Assembly: GCA_028522875.1 (NCBI GenBank)
Contig: GCA_028522875.1_3659.1
Length of the DNA stretch: 64,000 nt
Direction: 5' to 3' (one strand)
DNA from: a phage
In this document: positions 4,380 through 28,876 of the stretch, piece after piece
Layout: each line of letters opens with the position of its first letter
Position numbering within the stretch: the stretch's first letter is position 1
Notes under the pieces: generated by a model
Told to the model about the DNA's origin: nothing
The model's database searches: none
Seen by the model: the letters and a program-made list of their open reading frames with translations, nothing else
Translations under genes and position numbers: made by a program

Positions 4380-4730
4380 TCAGTAGATGTTTTGTTTAAT
4401 CTCTATTCCAAACTTCTTGAATGAGTCAGCAGCAAGCATAAATTTACGAGCTGCCGATGGATTAGAAGTATGCACGAAAATAACCACGTTGTCAATAAGT
4501 GGTGGCTTTCCGAATACAAGTTTCTCCTCTAGCGCAGAGAAGCAGTCGTACCCTTCAAGCACTTCACCTAGATCATTGTCAAAATACCACTCAGATACGC
4601 GTCTGTAGAGCTTTCTCTTATCATTAAGAAAATCCATAAACTCAGAAGAATTCTTTAGCCACAGAGCGTCTGGGAGTCCATAATCTGACGGATCTCTAAA
4701 ATCATCAAGCCACACAATCCACTTCTTCAT
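4380..4730 (-). CDS. hypothetical protein (116 aa)
   Basis: ORF with 4-nt overlap with upstream RNA-ligase-like gene (translational coupling); N-terminus MKKWIVWLDDFRDP; no confident family. Confidence 0.3.
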   Translation of the reverse strand: MKKWIVWLDDFRDPSDYGLPDALWLKNSSEFMDFLNDKRKLYRRVSEWYFDNDLGEVLEGYDCFSALEEKLVFGKPPLIDNVVIFVHTSNPSAARKFMLAADSFKKFGIEIKQNIY

Positions 4731-5662
4731 TGCATATAGTCCTCGTTGTGGAAATAGTAGTCCAGTATCTCACGACGCTCCTGCTCTAATAAGCAATTCC
4801 ACACATCTTCTGTATAGTTGCTACGAATAAATTTTACCATACCGTAAAACTCTTCGTCAACACGTTTAAAGATATCATCATCCCAAATCTTCCAAGCTTT
4901 ACCCCTCATTACTGCCTTCCGTGCCAGATAGTATGGAGACTTGATCTTCAGCTGCAGATCATAAGGGTAGTAAGGCTTACGAATCATATACCCTTCACCT
5001 CTTGTTTCTGCAGCTAATTCTTTTGCATAGCTGAACGGAATTTCACGCACAGTGTGAGGACGTTTTGCACCAAGGTATTTGGCAATCCCATCTAAAGCTG
5101 CTTCTGGTAGCATTATTCCAGAATCATTATATCTGCAACCTATCAAATATGCGCCATGATCTTCCTGAACAATATGCGGATCTGAAGGGTGGCAAATTTC
5201 AAACATGAATGTCATGTTTTCATTGCCCATAACCTTCTTGATAAGATCTAAATTACCACATTGCTCCCTGATGGTTTCTTTTGCGAGGTTACAATATGGG
5301 GAATCAAGAGACCCGGTTGTTGAGAACAATAGTTCACCTTTATGAGATGATACCACACCGAGGAATCCGTTCTTTTTCTCTACCGCAGTAACAAGTTTAC
5401 TGTCCGGTAGGTTGGTGGAGTTTTCTCCTAAGTTGAATACTTTTGTGAAAGGCCATGCCACAACATTCCCCTCATTACCAACAACAATACCTCGGCACTC
5501 CAGTAAACGCGGAGACAAATGCCACAGATTGTTGTAGAATACTTTTCTGGCATATTTATAGATCTTTAATCCAAGATCTGGATAATACCGACTGGTTACA
5601 AGACCTTTGTCTACTAGGTCATCTGCATTAAAATACTTCATCATACGTTCCTCATTTGTCAT
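4727..5662 (-). CDS. RNA ligase-like nucleotidyltransferase (putative RNA sealing enzyme)
   Basis: 311 aa; KxNG motif I (EKKNGFLGVV), motif IV EGYMIRKP, motif V LKIKSP; size and context favour RNA ligase over DNA ligase but not proven. Confidence 0.5.
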   Translation of the reverse strand: MTNEERMMKYFNADDLVDKGLVTSRYYPDLGLKIYKYARKVFYNNLWHLSPRLLECRGIVVGNEGNVVAWPFTKVFNLGENSTNLPDSKLVTAVEKKNGFLGVVSSHKGELLFSTTGSLDSPYCNLAKETIREQCGNLDLIKKVMGNENMTFMFEICHPSDPHIVQEDHGAYLIGCRYNDSGIMLPEAALDGIAKYLGAKRPHTVREIPFSYAKELAAETRGEGYMIRKPYYPYDLQLKIKSPYYLARKAVMRGKAWKIWDDDIFKRVDEEFYGMVKFIRSNYTEDVWNCLLEQERREILDYYFHNEDYMQ

Positions 5663-5705
5663 TTTGTCAGTCTATCCTTCCACACAAATAACCTAGTGTC
5701 AACAC

Positions 5706-5734
5706 TTGAAATTAACAAAACAGTTAGGTATACT
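5706..5734 (+). promoter_or_regulatory. sigma70-like promoter (TTGAAA-N17-TATACT) for kinase/phosphoesterase operon
   Basis: -35 TTGAAA at 5706-5711, 17-nt spacer, -10 TATACT at 5729-5734; located in divergent intergenic region. Confidence 0.5.
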
Positions 5735-5762
5735 ATCATTAAAATTAAAACGGAGGATTGCT

Positions 5763-6173
5763 ATGTCTAAAATGCTATATATCGTGCGTGGTCTGCCAGG
5801 GTCTGGCAAATCAACACTGGCAAATGCGCTATCTTTAGAAGGTCTGTATCCACATTTTGAGAATGACATGTTTTGGTATGACGATGACGGCAATTACAAC
5901 TGGGATGCAAGTAAAGTAACACTCGCAGCAAAATGGTGCAAAGATAACGTAGAAGATATGATGCGTATGGGATACGACCGTATCGTGGTAAGTAATACGT
6001 TTACAAAAGAAAAACATGTGCAGGGATATGTTGACATGGCAATCAGTCATGGGTATAGTTATACCGTAATCGTGGTTGAAAACCGCCACGGTAATAAAAG
6101 CATTCATGATGTTCCAGACAAGGTTGTGGATCGTATGGAACGCCAGCTTAAAAACTGCATTAAACTTAAATGA
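5763..6173 (+). CDS. P-loop polynucleotide 5'-kinase-like protein
   Basis: Start chosen at ATG 5763 behind GGAGGA RBS (ORF-track start 5706 lacks RBS); Walker A IVRGLPGSGKSTLA resembles kinase domain of T4 Pnk-type enzymes. Confidence 0.6.
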   Translation: MSKMLYIVRGLPGSGKSTLANALSLEGLYPHFENDMFWYDDDGNYNWDASKVTLAAKWCKDNVEDMMRMGYDRIVVSNTFTKEKHVQGYVDMAISHGYSYTVIVVENRHGNKSIHDVPDKVVDRMERQLKNCIKLK

Positions 6174-6180
6174 GGAATGT

Positions 6181-6735
6181 ATGAAATACTTTGTAACAAG
6201 CGATACGCACTTTCTCCACCAGCGGGTCATGGAGTTTGATTCATGTCAAAAACACAGATCTCAATATGATCACAATCTTGACAGTATGAATGCGGGAATC
6301 ATCACCGAGTGGAACTCCGTTGTGTCACCTGCAGACACTGTGTTCCACCTGGGAGATATTGCGTGCACTAATGATAAGAATATCAACAACTTACTTCCAG
6401 ATATTCTAAATATGTTGAACGGACATATTATTCTTGTTCGTGGCAACCATGACACAAGGACGACTGTCAGAATTATGAAAGAGTTCGGTCATGAGGTTGT
6501 AGATTATTACGAGCTTCGCCACAACAAGAATTTGATCTGTATGAGCCATTACCAGTTTGCAAAGTGGAACAGAAAGCCTCACGGATCAGTCCAACTGTTC
6601 GGTCATGCTCACGGAACCACACAACAGTTGTTTGGCAGGCAGCTTGATGTCGGTTGGGATGTGTGGGGGAGACTCTTACCATTAGAAGAGGCATACCGTA
6701 TTGCAATGAGTTTTGATATTGACAGCAGGGAGTAA
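6181..6735 (+). CDS. calcineurin-like metallophosphoesterase
   Basis: Start at ATG 6181 behind GAGGAA RBS; motifs SDTHF (DxH), GDIA, VRGNHDT (GNHD), GHAHG in canonical order. Confidence 0.65.
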   Translation: MKYFVTSDTHFLHQRVMEFDSCQKHRSQYDHNLDSMNAGIITEWNSVVSPADTVFHLGDIACTNDKNINNLLPDILNMLNGHIILVRGNHDTRTTVRIMKEFGHEVVDYYELRHNKNLICMSHYQFAKWNRKPHGSVQLFGHAHGTTQQLFGRQLDVGWDVWGRLLPLEEAYRIAMSFDIDSRE

Positions 6736-6782: not shown

Positions 6783-7133
6783 ATGAAAGATGGGGATAAG
6801 CTGCTATATCTTAAAGTCCCCCTTGAAATACTATCTATGTCAAAAGTTTTGAATGACACAACTGGGGAGGTTGTTGTTCTTGACTTGTATGACAAGATTG
6901 TATACTGCTACCTGCACAACTGGTATAAGCTTGGAGGAAATTCACGCTTCACACCAAGCACAAGGAAAATTGCAGCAGATGTTGGGATAAAGAAAACAAA
7001 AGCAGCAGCGTGCGTTAAAACTTTAGAATGTGCAGGAGTGGTTGAAACATCCACACAAGGGAGAGGTAAAAGATGCACATTTTCCAAAGTTTTGCCACCA
7101 GAAGAAGTTATTCGAATGTCAACAACTGGTTAG
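6783..7133 (+). CDS. putative helix-turn-helix DNA-binding protein
   Basis: 116 aa; AGGAG RBS; segment STRKIAADVGIKKTKAAACVKTLECAGVVE resembles HTH/winged-helix recognition region; lies directly upstream of palindrome array. Confidence 0.35.
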   Translation: MKDGDKLLYLKVPLEILSMSKVLNDTTGEVVVLDLYDKIVYCYLHNWYKLGGNSRFTPSTRKIAADVGIKKTKAAACVKTLECAGVVETSTQGRGKRCTFSKVLPPEEVIRMSTTG

Positions 7134-7207
7134 ACCAGTAAAAACTTAAATATCTGTACTATAAGGGTTTGTATGTTTTATGTTCACCATGGAACAGAAA
7201 CTATTAA

Positions 7208-7290
7208 CTGTCCGTGATACGGACACCACTGTCCGTCACGCGGACACATCTGCCCGTAATACGGACACTAACTGTCCGTGATACGGACAC
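7208..7290. promoter_or_regulatory. array of four tandem 19-bp palindromic sites (CTGTCCGT-nnn-ACGGACAC) at ~21-bp spacing
   Basis: Copies at 7208-7226, 7229-7247, 7250-7268, 7272-7290; copies 1 and 4 identical, 2 and 3 each with 1-2 substitutions; inverted-repeat arms TGTCCGT/ACGGACA. Confidence 0.6.
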
Positions 7291-7430
7291 ATAAAGAATA
7301 TAACTAAAATAACTAAATAATAAAAAATAAAAGATCTAGTACTTATGGTACTAAGTACATATACTTAACTTATGTAGAATATACTAGATCCTAAGTACCA
7401 TGTTTTAAATTTATTACTTTCTATAGGTAG
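7291..7430. repeat. AT-rich region with direct and inverted repeats (possible DNA unwinding / origin-like element)
   Basis: ATAACTAAA direct repeat, palindrome GTACTAAGTAC, inverted repeats AGATCTAGTAC ... GTACTAGATC; very low GC. Confidence 0.4.
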
Positions 7431-7700
7431 TGTCGGCCCTTCATTGGCACTCGCCTACGAGGGGCGAGATGCCGGGCCTCCATAGTGCACACATGCAGGT
7501 CTGTTAACATGTGTGGGAGCGAAGCGGCGCAGGCCAAAGGCCGAGCACTAATGTGGACCACCGACGAAAGCTTGCCAGCGCCGTAAGGAGTCGGTTGAGA
7601 GCCTCCCGCGCGAGTTTGGATAAAGTTTATGTGTGGAAACGGACAATGAGGCCCCTAAATCGCTCCACAGCCATATAAACTATACCAAGTAAGGCAATCG
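7431..7700. ncRNA. candidate structured non-coding RNA (GC-rich island A)
   Basis: No ORF of 60 aa or more on either strand; abrupt GC rise; nested helices e.g. CGGCCC/GGGCC, TGGCA/TGCC, CTCGCC/GGCGAG (7434-7479) and CACACATG/CATGTGTG (7488-7515); strand and ends unknown. Confidence 0.3.
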
Positions 7701-7772
7701 CACCAGTTTGATAGAAAAGCTCGTTACAAAGCGATACAGCGAGTTTTTCTATAACTTGAAGAGGAGGCAGCT

Positions 7773-8351
7773 ATGAGTCCACGCAAAGATGACCGTGAAA
7801 AGATTGCAAAACGTTATCAGAATGAAGAACAGATGGAGAAAACTTTCAAGTGGAAGCCAGGTTTCCAGCGTAATCATTCTAACGCTCGTGATCGTAAGCA
7901 TCCGGATAAGTGGTTAACACCGCCAAATGATGGCATGCAGGTTGGTGATGAGAAGGAGCTGTCACCTGGAAAAGATGGCAACTACATTCGCACTAAGGAA
8001 GCAGGTCCAAAGGATGACAGCTATCTTGTAGATAAGGTTCTTGATGGTATTGATGTGGATGTTGACACTGCACGAAACCTTTTTCTTGGTTGGTATCGTA
8101 CAGGGTTTTTCGACATCAAGGCTATTCGTCGTGTTTGCGATATTAAAAAGTCTGCCTATGATGATGACTCTCTACATCGCACTCTGAGACAATACTCAGA
8201 GAGATACGGTCATCCAGTCATCACTCTTGACGATATTAACGAAGTGATGTATCATGCAGAGGTTGTTGCAGGTAGATTCGGTGATGCATATCTCGGTATT
8301 CTTTCTGCAAAAGATGAGGTAATGTTAAATAAAATTTACTATGAACGCTGA
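7773..8351 (+). CDS. hypothetical protein (192 aa)
   Basis: ORF with strong GAGGAGG RBS; no recognisable motif. Confidence 0.45.
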   Translation: MSPRKDDREKIAKRYQNEEQMEKTFKWKPGFQRNHSNARDRKHPDKWLTPPNDGMQVGDEKELSPGKDGNYIRTKEAGPKDDSYLVDKVLDGIDVDVDTARNLFLGWYRTGFFDIKAIRRVCDIKKSAYDDDSLHRTLRQYSERYGHPVITLDDINEVMYHAEVVAGRFGDAYLGILSAKDEVMLNKIYYER

Positions 8352-8360
8352 GGAGCGCTT

Positions 8361-8550
8361 AATGAACAACCCGGTAGCAAAGAACTGTAATAAGTTCAAC
8401 AAGTCTGCAATTCACACTGACAGGAAAAAGAGCTGGTCTCCTGACATTGACGAGGAGCTTGAGAGTTACTTTGAAGACCTGGTCACTAATGCAGATGAGG
8501 TTGCGATTAAAGAATACGCAGACAGGAAGGATAAGGCCGGAATCTGTTGA
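8361..8550 (+). CDS. hypothetical protein (about 63 aa)
   Basis: ATG at 8361 preceded by GAGGAG RBS; ORF-track start 8341 overlaps upstream gene. Confidence 0.3.
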
Positions 8551-8626
8551 CAAAAATAGTGTTACCTGATAAGATCTGCAATATGATGTGATGCAATTTT
8601 AACTTACGAGGTCTACAGGTAATGCT

Positions 8627-21215: not shown

Positions 21216-21674
21216 ATGCTAAAGGTTAAATGTCAAACAAGGTTCAACCTAAAGCGTTTAGATCGCTTCTACAAAGAACTTGTGAGACTTGAAAGTAAAA
21301 CAATAACCTACGGCTTTTATGACGAACCTCACCCGTCAGGCTTAAATATGGCAACATTGGCAGCCATTCACAACTTCGGTTGGAACGGGCTTCCTGTTCG
21401 CAATTTCATGGAGACAGCCTTTGCATTTCACAACACTCAACTACAGACCTTGACAGAAAAATTGTTGAGAGCTATGGCTAGAGGATCAAGTGCAGAGGCT
21501 ATTCTTAAGCAGATGGGGGACACAGGGGCCAAAGCTATCCAGTTTGTTATTGAGGCTGGTCAGTTTAGTAATCCTACTGTTAGTGAGCAGTGGGCACAAG
21601 AAAAGGGATTCAACGAGGCTATGCGGCATTACGATGTGCTGCTTGAATCTGCAACCTTTAAAATCGGACAGTAA
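21216..21674 (+). CDS. putative head-tail connector/completion protein
   Basis: ATG 21216 behind GTGAGGG; position between head and tail genes. Confidence 0.3.
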   Translation: MLKVKCQTRFNLKRLDRFYKELVRLESKTITYGFYDEPHPSGLNMATLAAIHNFGWNGLPVRNFMETAFAFHNTQLQTLTEKLLRAMARGSSAEAILKQMGDTGAKAIQFVIEAGQFSNPTVSEQWAQEKGFNEAMRHYDVLLESATFKIGQ

Positions 21675-27991: not shown

Positions 27992-28876
27992 ATGCCAAGC
28001 AATATAGTTGATGAAAAAGACCTGTACAAGCCTCAAGAGGTTAAATCTCCAAAGGCTGAAAAGGCAGAGCAGCAAACTGAAAGCGATGTAAAGTACACTA
28101 TGTTTGTCAGTGGTCTTAACTATGGTGGTCGCAATACGGAGATGAAGGGTAAAAACTTTACTAACGATCTTGCCATTATCTTCGATCAGGTTGAGAACTA
28201 TTCTTTCAAACATTCTGTTGATAAAACTGGTTTTGCAGTGGAAGATAAATCTACCATGTCAGACCACGCTGTAATTAAAGATGGTGTATTTTCTTTTACT
28301 GGTAGGGTAAATACATCCCCACATATAATTTATGAGCAAAACTACATTGATAGGAATACTGACTCTAAAAACCCTGCAGCATCTATGCGACCAGGCGCTG
28401 CATTGGAGGCTTTGACTGAGATTATCAATAAGCGACAGTTGGTTTCTTTGGTTACCGAGGAGAGACTCCTTGAGAACTACATCATAACCAGTCTTTCTGC
28501 CAACAAGTCTGTTGGTGAAGGCGCTGCAATGGTGTTTGATGTAGAACTTACAGAGTTCCGCACATTCTACTTGAATAAGGTTGTTAATGCAACTGTATAC
28601 AGCAATCCTAAAAAAGTTGGGAAGACCCAGCAAAAAGGTGCTGTCAACGATTGCAAGAATGGTAGTAATGTAGGTAACAAGAGAGATACAGGGGCATTTG
28701 CAGACACTGCATCCACAAATGCTGCAGAAGAGTGGCAGCCATACAAGTCTATGATGTGGACAGATGAAAACGGTGTTACCCAGTCCGCTGCCGATTGGTA
28801 CTATCAGGAATATGGAAGACCTTCCACTATAGTTCCGTCAGAGCAGGGAAACTACGACAAAGTTAACGGAAAATAA
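27992..28876 (+). CDS. putative distal tail/baseplate protein
   Basis: about 295 aa from ATG 27992 behind GGAGAGG; first gene after tape measure. Confidence 0.35.
   Translation: MPSNIVDEKDLYKPQEVKSPKAEKAEQQTESDVKYTMFVSGLNYGGRNTEMKGKNFTNDLAIIFDQVENYSFKHSVDKTGFAVEDKSTMSDHAVIKDGVFSFTGRVNTSPHIIYEQNYIDRNTDSKNPAASMRPGAALEALTEIINKRQLVSLVTEERLLENYIITSLSANKSVGEGAAMVFDVELTEFRTFYLNKVVNATVYSNPKKVGKTQQKGAVNDCKNGSNVGNKRDTGAFADTASTNAAEEWQPYKSMMWTDENGVTQSAADWYYQEYGRPSTIVPSEQGNYDKVNGK

What the first reader, a model, noticed from the sequence alone, without database searches (positions are those of the whole stretch)
7431..7700. GC-rich, ORF-free structured island A: candidate stable non-coding RNA
About 270 bp with no ORF of 60 aa or more on either strand, a sharp GC increase relative to flanks, and several nested perfect helices (a 15-bp interrupted hairpin at 7434-7479, an 8-bp CACACATG/CATGTGTG hairpin, GGCC-AAA-GGCC). 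Phage tRNA regions are known to hold small stable RNAs of unknown function (for example T4 species 1/2 RNAs); this could be a new one or a ribozyme-like element.
Basis: partly seen in the sequence, partly recalled or inferred. Interest (0 to 1): 0.6.

Follow-up and report, generated by a model that had tools for sequence, protein, structure and literature searches.

The report
New structured RNA beside phage origin
The GC-rich island is a real, non-coding, folded element of about 275 bases with no known family; it is shared by rV5-like E. coli phages and by small phage-like plasmids that look like their satellites, and in both it sits next to a replication-origin-like repeat array.

Summary
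Window 7431-7706 is GC-rich (0.53-0.55 against 0.36 upstream), has no ORF of 60 aa or more, and contains the hairpins described. Folding energy of the single sequence is not unusual (z about -1.3), so the case rests on comparison.

The window is an rV5-like phage (Vequintavirus), and 119 relatives carry the element. A diverged relative keeps it from about 7431 although its upstream initiator and repeat module is unrelated.

About ten 13-kb circular E. coli "plasmids" also carry it. They encode capsid, tape-measure and baseplate proteins, some 48-55% identical to phage proteins.

Between phages and plasmids, four helices keep pairing through changes on both sides. About 25 G.U pairs place the fold on the + strand.

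No Rfam, tRNA or tmRNA model matches. The annotated "ORF78" shows no coding constraint (pN/pS 0.82).

The element always lies beside iteron-like repeats next to a small replication-initiator-like protein. My best reading is a new structured RNA forming the constant arm of a swappable origin module, through which putative satellites use the helper's replication machinery. That function is inferred. A protein-binding trans-acting RNA is nearly as likely.

The parts
7435..7478 (+). Hairpin H1: outer stem GGCCC/GGGCC, inner stem GGCACUCGCC/GGCGAG(A)UGCC, 15 bp in all.
   Evidence: 99% of cells are paired across 8 distinct sequences. Two pairs change on both sides (G-C to U-A) in plasmid NZ_CP020521. 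Among the plasmids examined, only this one has H1.
7488..7515 (+). Hairpin H2, CACACAUG/CAUGUGUG. This is a variable-length arm; most relatives have an 18-nt longer apical extension with AACAG/CUGUU.
   Evidence: The 18-nt indel leaves a hairpin in both forms. An A-to-G change in three phages gives G.U. Its 3' arm overlaps the 5' strand of P1, so the two are partly exclusive.
7511..7611 (+). Core domain closed by helix P1, GUGUGGGAG (7511-7519) with CUCCCGCGC (7603-7611). It begins with the UGUGUGGG motif.
   Evidence: P1 can form in every homologue. The IMG/VR phage pairs GGAAG with CUUCC. Plasmid variants pair GUGUGUGGGG/UUCCGCGCGC and GUGUGGG/CUCGCGC. The 2-5 G.U pairs would be A.C mismatches on the other strand. 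Covariance model R1 of this domain finds exactly one copy in the window and one per plasmid unit.
7532..7542 (+). Small hairpin P3, GGCC-AAA-GGCC, flanked by the pairs GC/GC (7528-7529 with 7545-7546).
   Evidence: The equivalent position holds GUGC-GAA/GAUA-GCAC in type-B plasmids, and possibly AUGC-GUCA-GCAU in type-A plasmids. Homology of the type-A version is uncertain.
7560..7595 (+). Helix P2, ACCGAC/GUCGGU, enclosing a 24-nt loop GAAAGCUUGCCAGCGCCGUAAGGA (7566-7589).
   Evidence: 100% paired in 23 sequences. Three of six pairs change on both sides (GCUGCC/GGCAGC in plasmids), and two phages show a G.U intermediate. A third version, GUCCGGAU/AUCCGGAC with a different 18-nt loop, occurs in four plasmids. 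The loop is identical except at one position in all phages and six plasmids.
7612..7706 (+). 3' domain. Helix X pairs GUGUGG (7631-7636) with CUAUAC (7680-7685). The conserved motif CCCCUAAAU is at 7652-7660. An alternative longer helix pairs 7624-7636 with 7665-7681. Homology with the plasmids ends at about 7703-7706.
   Evidence: X is replaced by CACUCACA/UGUGAGUG and variants in plasmids, and by GUGC/GCAC in the IMG/VR phage. A-to-G changes opposite U keep the alternative helix in several phages. Which of the two helices forms is unresolved.
7711..7752 (+). Conserved hairpin AUAGAAAAGCUCG ... CGAGUUUUUCUAU with a U run: a possible terminator or attenuator before the RBS (7760) and the gene at 7773.
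   Evidence: 13-nt arms, 92% complementary. Nearly invariant in 19 phages. The consensus terminator scan does not call it. The plasmids lack it.
7205..7290 (.). Context: four 21-22-bp spaced palindromic repeats TGTCCGTnnnACGGACA (iteron- or operator-like).
   Evidence: 4 matches against 0.08 expected, and none elsewhere in the window.
7291..7430 (.). Context: AT-rich spacer (GC about 0.25-0.36) with an inverted repeat at 7345-7355/7391-7401, directly abutting the element.
6783..7133 (+). Context: 116-aa HTH protein of the 'replication initiation protein' type.
   Evidence: PHROG 12838 at E = 5e-80. Pfam HTH_36 (24.5 bits against a cut-off of 25) and DUF6945 (27.4 bits against 28), both just below their curated cut-offs.

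Best explanation
Window 7431-7706 encodes a previously undescribed, non-coding, multi-helix element that folds on the + strand and is most probably made as RNA.

Its anatomy, 5' to 3':
- A 5' hairpin (H1).
- A variable arm (H2).
- A core closed by helix P1. The core presents a near-invariant 24-nt loop on helix P2.
- A 3' domain closed by helix X.

It is one family with elements in about ten 13-kb phage-like E. coli plasmids, which are putative satellites of rV5-like phages.

In every replicon it lies just downstream of an iteron-like repeat array belonging to a small O/HTH_36-type initiator. The initiator and repeats differ between replicons while the element stays the same.

Inferred mechanism, not shown: the element is the constant arm of the origin module. 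It would be a transcript, or less likely the displaced DNA strand, that recruits or primes the phage-encoded replisome (gp4-like primase-helicase plus Pol A). The satellites, which encode no recognisable replisome genes in the annotation or profile searches, would carry a copy to draw on the helper's replication machinery.
For: Shown:
- 119 Vequintavirus records carry the element at 84-100% identity.
- In the diverged IMG/VR phage, conservation starts abruptly at about 7431. Upstream, that phage has a different HTH initiator-like gene and five unrelated 20-nt palindromic repeats.
- Homologues exist in the plasmids NZ_CP020521, CP148565, NZ_CP035869, CP134895, NZ_CP178698, NZ_CP043822 (a trimer), NZ_AP045055, NZ_JBUCKS010000006 and NZ_CP074841, and in two metagenome contigs.
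- Pairing is kept through double changes in H1, P2 (three sequence versions), P1 and X.
- Setting aside two H1 rows that the script mis-parsed, the typed helices hold 112 Watson-Crick, 25 G.U and 1 mismatched pair on the + strand. The same helices give 25 mismatches on the - strand.
- C(UUCG)G-capped short stems occur in the plasmid cassettes.
- ORF78 is not under coding constraint: pN/pS is 0.82, variable sites by codon position are 13/20/18, and the IMG/VR phage has a premature stop.
- No Rfam hit and no tRNA or tmRNA.
- Origin context in the window: four palindromic repeats plus an AT-rich tract beside an initiator-type HTH gene.
- Origin context in the plasmids: seven 19-nt iterons at 23-bp spacing, three AT-rich 36-nt repeats, and a 303-aa protein with weak O-like initiator hits.
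- The cumulative GC-skew minimum of the window lies about 1.5 kb away. The rV5 paper reports a skew change at the same place and a gp4-like primase-helicase plus Pol A (PMC3606486).
- The plasmids share baseplate, neck and tape-measure homologues with the phage at 48-55% aa identity (tape-measure fragments lower), whereas pieces of the element are 84-85% identical at the nucleotide level.
Against: - No transcript, promoter or replication origin has been demonstrated. No consensus sigma-70 promoter lies directly upstream.
- The single-sequence fold is not significant.
- Covariation rests on few independent lineages: essentially phage, plasmid type A and plasmid type B. The shuffle control for H1 is only 12/500.
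- In one plasmid the element lies about 550 nt from the iterons, not next to them.
- GC-skew minima also track the direction of transcription.
- Proximity to an origin-like array may only reflect a regulatory hub.
- The satellite status of the plasmids is itself an inference.
- Other Vequintavirinae genera (PVP-SE1, Klebsiella VLCpiM5b) have initiator-like genes, but the element was not found in the 12.5-kb stretches examined.
Confidence: 0.42

Rival explanations
1. A trans-acting, stable, protein-binding RNA (a decoy or sponge, for example against a host defence or an RNA-binding regulator, or a mediator of helper-satellite crosstalk). It would act through the near-invariant P2 loop and the repeated UGUGUGGG motif, and its place beside the origin-like array would be incidental.
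For: - The 24-nt loop is near-invariant and displayed on a covarying stem.
- The plasmids carry arrays of 1-3 extra three-hairpin cassettes, each followed by UGUGUGGG, a layout reminiscent of multi-site sponge RNAs.
- A second loop type exists, as if there were two partner specificities.
- A conserved hairpin with a U run could end a discrete transcript.
- RNA-repair genes (RnlA-like ligase, kinase-like ATPase, phosphoesterase) lie just upstream.
Against: - No partner is known.
- No complementary target for the loop was found in the window or in the plasmid beyond chance.
- No promoter was identified.
- This reading does not explain why the element stays next to three unrelated initiator and iteron sets.
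Confidence: 0.3
2. A cis-acting leader RNA (processive antiterminator of the put/EAR type, or an attenuator or riboswitch) that controls read-through of the hairpin at 7711-7752 into the downstream genes.
For: The phage layout is structured RNA, then a hairpin with a U run, then an RBS and gene, all on one strand. The hairpin is more conserved than the element itself.
Against: - The plasmid homologues lack this hairpin and have unrelated downstream genes.
- In the plasmids, strong sigma-70-like promoters lie between the element and the first gene, so those transcripts would not carry it.
- No riboswitch or leader family matches.
- The downstream 192-aa protein has no recognisable function.
Confidence: 0.12
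3. A DNA-level signal rather than an RNA. It could be folded single-stranded DNA acting as a priming or helicase-loading site (ssi type), or double-stranded inverted repeats bound by dimeric proteins (a pac site or operators) that satellites copy from their helper.
For: - Satellites typically copy cis-acting DNA sites of their helpers (established for P4 cos and PICI cos/pac; my own knowledge).
- The element abuts an AT-rich, presumably easily melted tract.
- Symmetric changes in inverted repeats could also arise by co-evolution with a dimeric protein.
Against: - There are many short stems of 3-8 bp with 3-4-nt loops, including C(UUCG)G. There is also a bulged stem.
- 25 G.U pairs tolerated on one strand only fit RNA folding better than duplex DNA recognition.
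- Stem sequences change while the enclosed loop stays fixed, the reverse of what an operator half-site model predicts.
Confidence: 0.1
4. It encodes the small basic protein annotated as rV5 ORF78 (7511-7678; 55-56 aa).
For: The frame is open in 18 of 19 phage sequences. The two indels inside it are multiples of three.
Against: - pN/pS is 0.82, like the other two frames, and second codon positions vary most.
- The IMG/VR phage has a premature stop.
- The start is GTG, with no Shine-Dalgarno sequence.
- No Pfam or PHROG family matches.
- The compensatory stem changes are non-synonymous on both sides.
- The conserved block begins 80 nt upstream of the ORF.
Confidence: 0.03

Closest known systems
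Origin-linked structured nucleic acids: ColE1 RNA II primer, T4 oriF/oriG and T7 origin transcripts (R-loop priming), and the ssiA/ssiB hairpins of RSF1010 oriV
   Same: It is a multi-hairpin element placed directly beside the repeat and AT-rich part of an origin-like region. It is G-rich on the folded strand (GC skew +0.08 to +0.12). The phage has a T7 gp4-like primase-helicase.
   Different: There is no sequence or model similarity. No antisense RNA I-like partner or RNase H site can be identified. Here an iteron-binding initiator is also present. Origin function is untested.
Large or medium structured phage RNAs of unknown function (GOLLD, ROOL; T4 species 1 and 2 RNAs)
   Same: It is phage-borne, ornate, non-coding, of unknown function, and in the same genome region as tRNA genes.
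   Different: It is much smaller than GOLLD or ROOL, and no Rfam match was found. It is not adjacent to the tRNAs (1.9 kb and five genes away). It is shared with tRNA-less plasmids.
Regulatory RNAs of satellites and phage-plasmids (P4 CI RNA, P1/P7 c4, N15 CB; Rfam C4 family) and the PLE/ICP1 non-coding RNAs
   Same: It is a non-coding RNA candidate in a helper and satellite setting. Like PLE, the plasmids have a roughly 3-kb non-coding region with the origin next to a MarR-like gene (PMC7567579).
   Different: There is no match to the C4 family. No complementary target sequences were found. Here the same element is present in both helper-type phage and satellite.
Multi-repeat protein-sequestering or antitoxin RNAs (CsrB/RsmZ; type III antitoxins such as ToxI)
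   Same: The plasmid versions are arrays of short structured units separated by a recurring 8-nt motif.
   Different: The units differ in sequence and are not near-identical tandem repeats. There are no GGA-loop motifs. No ToxN-like toxin gene lies downstream. The phage copy is not a repeat array.

Membership tests
Any Rfam 15 family (4227 models, including riboswitches, ribozymes, 6S, RNase P, SRP, C4 antisense, RNAI, GOLLD, ROOL) | Score at or above the family gathering threshold. | tested here: not met
   At gathering thresholds only tRNAs matched in the window. At E up to 10 over 7100-9700, the only hit touching the island is rli43, 24 bits against a threshold of 100. It mostly covers the AT-rich tract and is spurious.
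tRNA / tmRNA / tRNA-like | Cloverleaf or tmRNA architecture detectable by ARAGORN. | tested here: not met
   ARAGORN reports 7 genes, all at 9649-10461.
T4-type small stable RNAs of the tRNA cluster (species 1/2) | Embedded in, and co-processed with, the tRNA gene cluster. | tested here: not met
   The element ends at 7706 and the first tRNA starts at 9649, with five ORFs between. The plasmid homologues have no tRNA genes. Sequence similarity to the T4 RNAs was not tested because no model was available.
Protein-coding gene (rV5 ORF78) | Purifying selection on the reading frame, and an intact frame in homologues. | tested here: not met
   pN/pS is 0.82. Variable columns by codon position are 13/20/18. 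The IMG/VR phage has a stop codon.
Structured RNA (generic) | Base pairs maintained by compensatory changes in homologues. | tested here: met
   - H1: 2 double changes, 99% paired.
- P2: 3 of 6 pairs with double changes, 100% paired, and 0 of 500 shuffles reach the covariation score.
- P2 exists in three sequence versions, and P1 and X have variants.

Only about three independent lineages contribute, so the statistics are thin.
Structured RNA (generic) | A discrete transcript with a defined promoter and terminator. | not testable with these tools
   No consensus promoter lies directly upstream. A conserved hairpin with a U run lies at 7711-7752. No expression data are available.
Iteron-type (lambda-like) replication origin, as context | Clustered direct or palindromic repeats at helical spacing, an adjacent AT-rich tract, and a cognate initiator gene alongside. 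| tested here: met
   - Window: 4 repeats at 21-22-bp spacing, an AT-rich tract, and an HTH gene of the PHROG 'replication initiation protein' family.
- IMG/VR phage: 5 different repeats plus a different HTH gene.
- Plasmid: 7 iterons at 23-bp spacing plus an O-like protein.

Origin activity itself is not testable here.
ColE1 RNA II-type primer | An antisense RNA I partner and RNase H-processed hybrid formation at the origin. | tested here: inconclusive
   No RNAI or RNA II-like Rfam match. Hybrid formation and processing cannot be tested computationally.
Type III toxin-antitoxin antitoxin RNA | Near-identical tandem repeats followed by a terminator and a ToxN/AbiQ-type toxin gene. | tested here: not met
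   The island has no tandem repeat. The downstream 192-aa protein has no Pfam hit. The plasmid downstream genes are unrelated.
Riboswitch / gene-specific leader | The same class of downstream gene in all members. | tested here: not met
   The phage has the PHROG 12226 protein downstream. The plasmids have 49- and 69-aa ORFs and an O-like initiator, with no similarity between the two sets.

The most novel reading that the evidence does not exclude
The element would be an origin RNA whose P2 loop is the handle by which a phage-encoded replisome is recruited or primed. Small extrachromosomal satellites of virulent rV5-like phages would carry their own copy, in two loop 'specificity' types and with expandable hairpin cassettes, to capture their helper's replication machinery. 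This would be RNA-mediated hijacking of a helper replisome, and it would reveal a previously unrecognised family of plasmid-borne satellites of a lytic myovirus.
Probability: 0.22. Interest if true: 0.88.

Novelty: new variant of a known kind. Interest (0 to 1): 0.66.

Why it matters
If this reading is right, three things follow.

1. It adds a covariation-supported RNA family to the short list of structured phage RNAs. Unlike GOLLD or ROOL, this one comes with a testable context, namely an origin-like module and a helper-satellite pair in E. coli. rV5-like phages (for example BASEL Bas55-59) and K-12 hosts are tractable.
2. It flags about ten 13-kb 'non-mobilizable plasmids' in clinical and animal E. 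coli as likely satellites of virulent Vequintavirus phages, which are widely used in biocontrol. That matters for phage therapy and for understanding how such plasmids spread.
3. The origin of replication of rV5-like phages has not been defined (PMC3606486). The iteron, AT-rich tract and element module gives a concrete candidate.

Tried and rejected
- **Rfam**, at gathering and permissive thresholds: nothing found.
- **ARAGORN:** nothing in the island.
- **Single-sequence folding significance:** not significant on either strand.
- **RNAalifold on phages alone:** too little variation. The covariation term was about 0, and its proposed pairing inside P2 is broken in the plasmids, so I rejected it in favour of P2.
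- **Host-derived fragment:** no E. coli chromosome matches, only small plasmids.
- **Exact-pattern scans of IMG/VR, GTDB genomes and JGI/ENA metagenomes.** These returned only one IMG/VR phage, rV5-like phage contigs, two satellite contigs and one chance hit inside a GC-rich gene (L023). A gapped pattern gave 5 genome hits, as expected by chance. The covariance model confirmed none of them at the pattern site.
- **Other Vequintavirinae genera, reached by synteny** (PVP-SE1, Klebsiella VLCpiM5b): no element in the stretches fetched.
- **A trans target complementary to the invariant loop:** only chance-level 9-11-mers.
- **A small ORF starting after the AAGGAG in the loop:** not conserved in the plasmids (by inspection).
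- **Mimicry of E. coli CRISPR repeats:** considered from memory because of the CUGCC/GGCAG stem and the GCCAGCG string. I dropped it because the stem sequence is not conserved between phage and plasmids.
- **Type-B core in any sequenced phage:** none.
- **Literature:** no paper found on an rV5 non-coding RNA or on rV5 satellites.

Full report
**What the window is, and where the finding sits.** The window is 100% identical here to Escherichia phage Murica, and 84-99% identical to 119 records of the genus Vequintavirus (rV5-like myoviruses). The finding lies in a 640-bp gap between two + strand genes. The upstream gene is a 116-aa helix-turn-helix protein (6783-7133). The downstream gene is a 192-aa protein of unknown function (7773-8351). 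The gap has five parts in this order:

- Four palindromic repeats TGTCCGTnnnACGGACA at 21-22-bp spacing (7205-7290). There are 4 matches against 0.08 expected, and none elsewhere in the window.
- An AT-rich tract (7291-7430).
- The GC-rich island (7431-7706).
- A conserved hairpin with a U run (7711-7752).
- The ribosome-binding site of the next gene.

**The observation.** It is accurate. GC content, the absence of ORFs of 60 aa or more, and the three named hairpins are all there. On its own, however, the sequence does not fold better than shuffled versions (z = -1.28 on +, -1.72 on -). The hairpins by themselves would therefore not be evidence. No Rfam family, tRNA or tmRNA matches.

**Conservation among phages.** Within Vequintavirus the island varies somewhat more (typically 88-90% identical) than the 701-bp region around it (about 93.5%). 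It carries an 18-nt indel in the second hairpin.

The informative case is a diverged relative from IMG/VR (L004). Its downstream protein is 83% identical. Upstream it has a different HTH protein and five unrelated 20-nt palindromic repeats. Alignment with the window starts abruptly at about 7431 and runs through the island. The island is therefore a unit with its own 5' boundary, and it is kept while the module next to it is exchanged.

**Homologues outside phages.** A sensitive search of 5,426 complete E. coli genomes found no chromosomal match. It found matches on small circular plasmids of 13.2-13.7 kb, one of them assembled as a 39.6-kb head-to-tail trimer. Two metagenome contigs of 13.9 and 15.5 kb are the same kind of element.

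These plasmids encode the following:

- A major capsid protein, a tape-measure protein, a baseplate protein and a neck/tail-completion protein.
- Two HTH proteins.
- A 303-aa protein with weak similarity to lambda O-like initiators.

Their baseplate and neck proteins are 48-55% identical to proteins encoded at window 28121-28678 and 21303-21644. They also have a non-coding region of about 2.9 kb. It holds seven 19-nt iterons at 23-bp spacing, three AT-rich 36-nt repeats and the homologue of the island.

I read them as probable satellites of rV5-like phages. That is an inference from gene content. I found no paper describing them.

**Structure.** Comparing phage and plasmid copies gives the evidence that single-sequence folding could not.

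- **H1:** two G-C pairs become U-A in plasmid NZ_CP020521, and all other pairs are kept (99% paired).
- **P2 (7560-7565 with 7590-7595):** ACCGAC/GUCGGU in phages becomes GCUGCC/GGCAGC in six plasmids. Two phages show a G.U intermediate. All 138 cells are paired, and no shuffle reaches the covariation score. Four further plasmids have a third version, GUCCGGAU/AUCCGGAC.
- **P1 (7511-7519 with 7603-7611):** this helix closes the core and is kept in all members, with wobble and indel variants. The IMG/VR phage compensates a C-to-U change with GGAAG.
- **X (7631-7636 with 7680-7685):** this helix closes the 3' domain. Plasmids replace it with CACUCACA/UGUGAGUG and relatives, and the IMG/VR phage with GUGC/GCAC. 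A longer alternative helix in the phages competes with X, and I could not decide between them.

I set aside two H1 rows that my script mis-parsed. The remaining typed helices then hold 112 Watson-Crick, 25 G.U and 1 mismatched pair on the + strand. On the - strand the 25 G.U pairs would be A.C mismatches. The folded strand is therefore the + strand, the same sense as the flanking genes.

The many 3-8-bp stems with 3-4-nt loops, including C(UUCG)G in the plasmid copies, favour RNA over DNA. This is a judgement, not a measurement.

A covariance model of the core finds one copy in the 64-kb window and one per plasmid unit.

**The loop and the cassettes.** P2 displays a 24-nt loop, GAAAGCUUGCCAGCGCCGNAAGGA. 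It is identical apart from one position in every phage and in six plasmids. The four plasmids with the third P2 version carry a different 18-nt loop instead. No sequenced phage has that type.

The plasmid copies also contain one to three extra units of about 45-55 nt. Each unit is three short hairpins followed by UGUGUGGG, the motif that also opens the phage core at 7510-7517. These units covary among themselves, for example UUAGCU/AGCUAA against UUAGCC/GGCUAA. I have no explanation for this modularity.

**Not a protein.** Several records annotate a 55-56-aa ORF here (rV5 ORF78).

- The frame is open in 18 of 19 phages, and the two indels inside it are multiples of three.
- pN/pS is 0.82, as in the other frames, and second codon positions vary most (13/20/18).
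- The IMG/VR phage has an early stop.
- There is no Shine-Dalgarno sequence and no family match.
- The stem compensations are non-synonymous on both sides.

**What it may do.** The one constant neighbour is an origin-like array.

- The upstream protein falls in a PHROG family annotated as replication initiation protein (E = 5e-80). It also scores just under the cut-offs of Pfam HTH_36 and DUF6945.
- Three unrelated initiator and repeat sets are each followed by the same element: the window type, the IMG/VR type and the plasmid types.
- The cumulative GC-skew minimum of the window is about 1.5 kb away. The rV5 paper saw a skew change at the same place, left the origin undefined, and reports a T7 gp4-like primase-helicase and a Pol A polymerase (PMC3606486).
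- No plasmid gene is annotated as, or matched by Pfam/PHROG profiles for, a replisome component.

The simplest account of 'variable initiator plus repeats, constant element, copy on the satellite' is that the element is the part of the origin module that deals with the conserved phage replisome. It could act as a primer or R-loop transcript, or as a recruiting RNA. Less likely, it acts as folded displaced DNA, like the ssi sites of RSF1010.

I hold this at about 0.4. Every functional step is inferred.

**Rival readings.**

- **A trans-acting protein-binding RNA (about 0.3).** This fits the displayed loop, the two loop types and the cassette arrays. It does not explain the linkage to origins, and no target was found.
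- **A cis-acting antiterminator or attenuator for the 7711-7752 hairpin (about 0.12).** This fits the phage layout. It fails in the plasmids, where the hairpin and downstream genes differ and strong promoters lie after the element.

**Comparison with known systems, and novelty.** It works, at most, like origin-linked structured nucleic acids or like satellite and phage regulatory RNAs. It is a member of none that I could test (see the membership table). It is restricted, as far as the collections show, to Vequintavirus and the E. coli plasmids.

I rate it a new family of a broadly known kind, a structured phage non-coding element. Its unusual features are sharing between a virulent phage and putative plasmid satellites, swappable loop types and expandable hairpin cassettes.

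Noticed in passing
window 7205-7430 (with gene 6783-7133): There are four palindromic repeats at 21-22-bp spacing, then a 140-bp AT-rich tract, beside an HTH_36/'replication initiation protein' gene. This is a lambda-like origin layout. The origin of rV5-like phages has not been defined (PMC3606486).
   Followed up: partly
L028 (NZ_CP020521.1, whole record); also L029-L033 and L041-L043: These are circular E. coli 'non-mobilizable plasmids' of about 13.2-13.7 kb. They encode a capsid protein, a tape measure, a baseplate protein, a neck protein and an O-like initiator. They have 48-55% aa identity to rV5-like proteins and a 2.9-kb non-coding region. They are probably an undescribed family of satellites. 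NZ_CP043822.1 is a head-to-tail trimer.
   Followed up: partly
L021 rev. 4615-4960; L033 1300-1470; L029 1535-1600; L032 1230-1340: The plasmid copies of the element hold a variable number of 45-55-nt cassettes. Each cassette is three short hairpins followed by UGUGUGGG. Paralogous cassettes covary with one another.
   Followed up: partly
L032 1338-1440; L041, L042, L043: A second core type has the P2 stem GUCCGGAU/AUCCGGAC and a different 18-nt loop. It occurs in four plasmids and in no sequenced phage.
   Followed up: partly
L019 977-988 and 1417-1428: A 12-nt direct repeat, TAGAATTGATTT, brackets the element in plasmid NZ_CP020521. It could be a trace of insertion or a pair of binding sites.
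   Followed up: no
window 8895-9175: This is a second GC-rich, ORF-free island of about 280 nt, after a sigma-70-like promoter (TTTACA-17-TATCAT, 8860-8888). The fold z-score is -2.07. It has no Rfam match. The L004 ORF map suggests it is conserved in the IMG/VR phage, though I did not align it. It is absent from the plasmids.
   Followed up: partly
window 10118-10216: This is a 99-nt tRNA-like gene that ARAGORN reports as 'tRNA-???' with a 4-base anticodon. Related records annotate it as tRNA-OTHER or tRNA-Lys(TTT).
   Followed up: no
window 7488-7515 and 7526-7529: The window (Murica), rV5 and MaxTheCat lack 18 nt of the H2 arm. The deletion lies between two GTGCA repeats. The window alone lacks the ATA present in all other phages at 7529/7530.
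   Followed up: yes
phage collection hits: Eighteen GenBank records named 'Campylobacter phage' (MG0656xx, host C. jejuni) are 89-99% identical to E. coli rV5-like phages across this locus. The host labels are probably wrong, or the records reflect contaminating coliphages.
   Followed up: no
window 4727-6735: An RNA-repair-type gene set lies just upstream, at the point where transcription diverges and the GC skew turns. It comprises a T4 RnlA-like RNA ligase, a P-loop kinase-like ATPase and a metallophosphoesterase.
   Followed up: no
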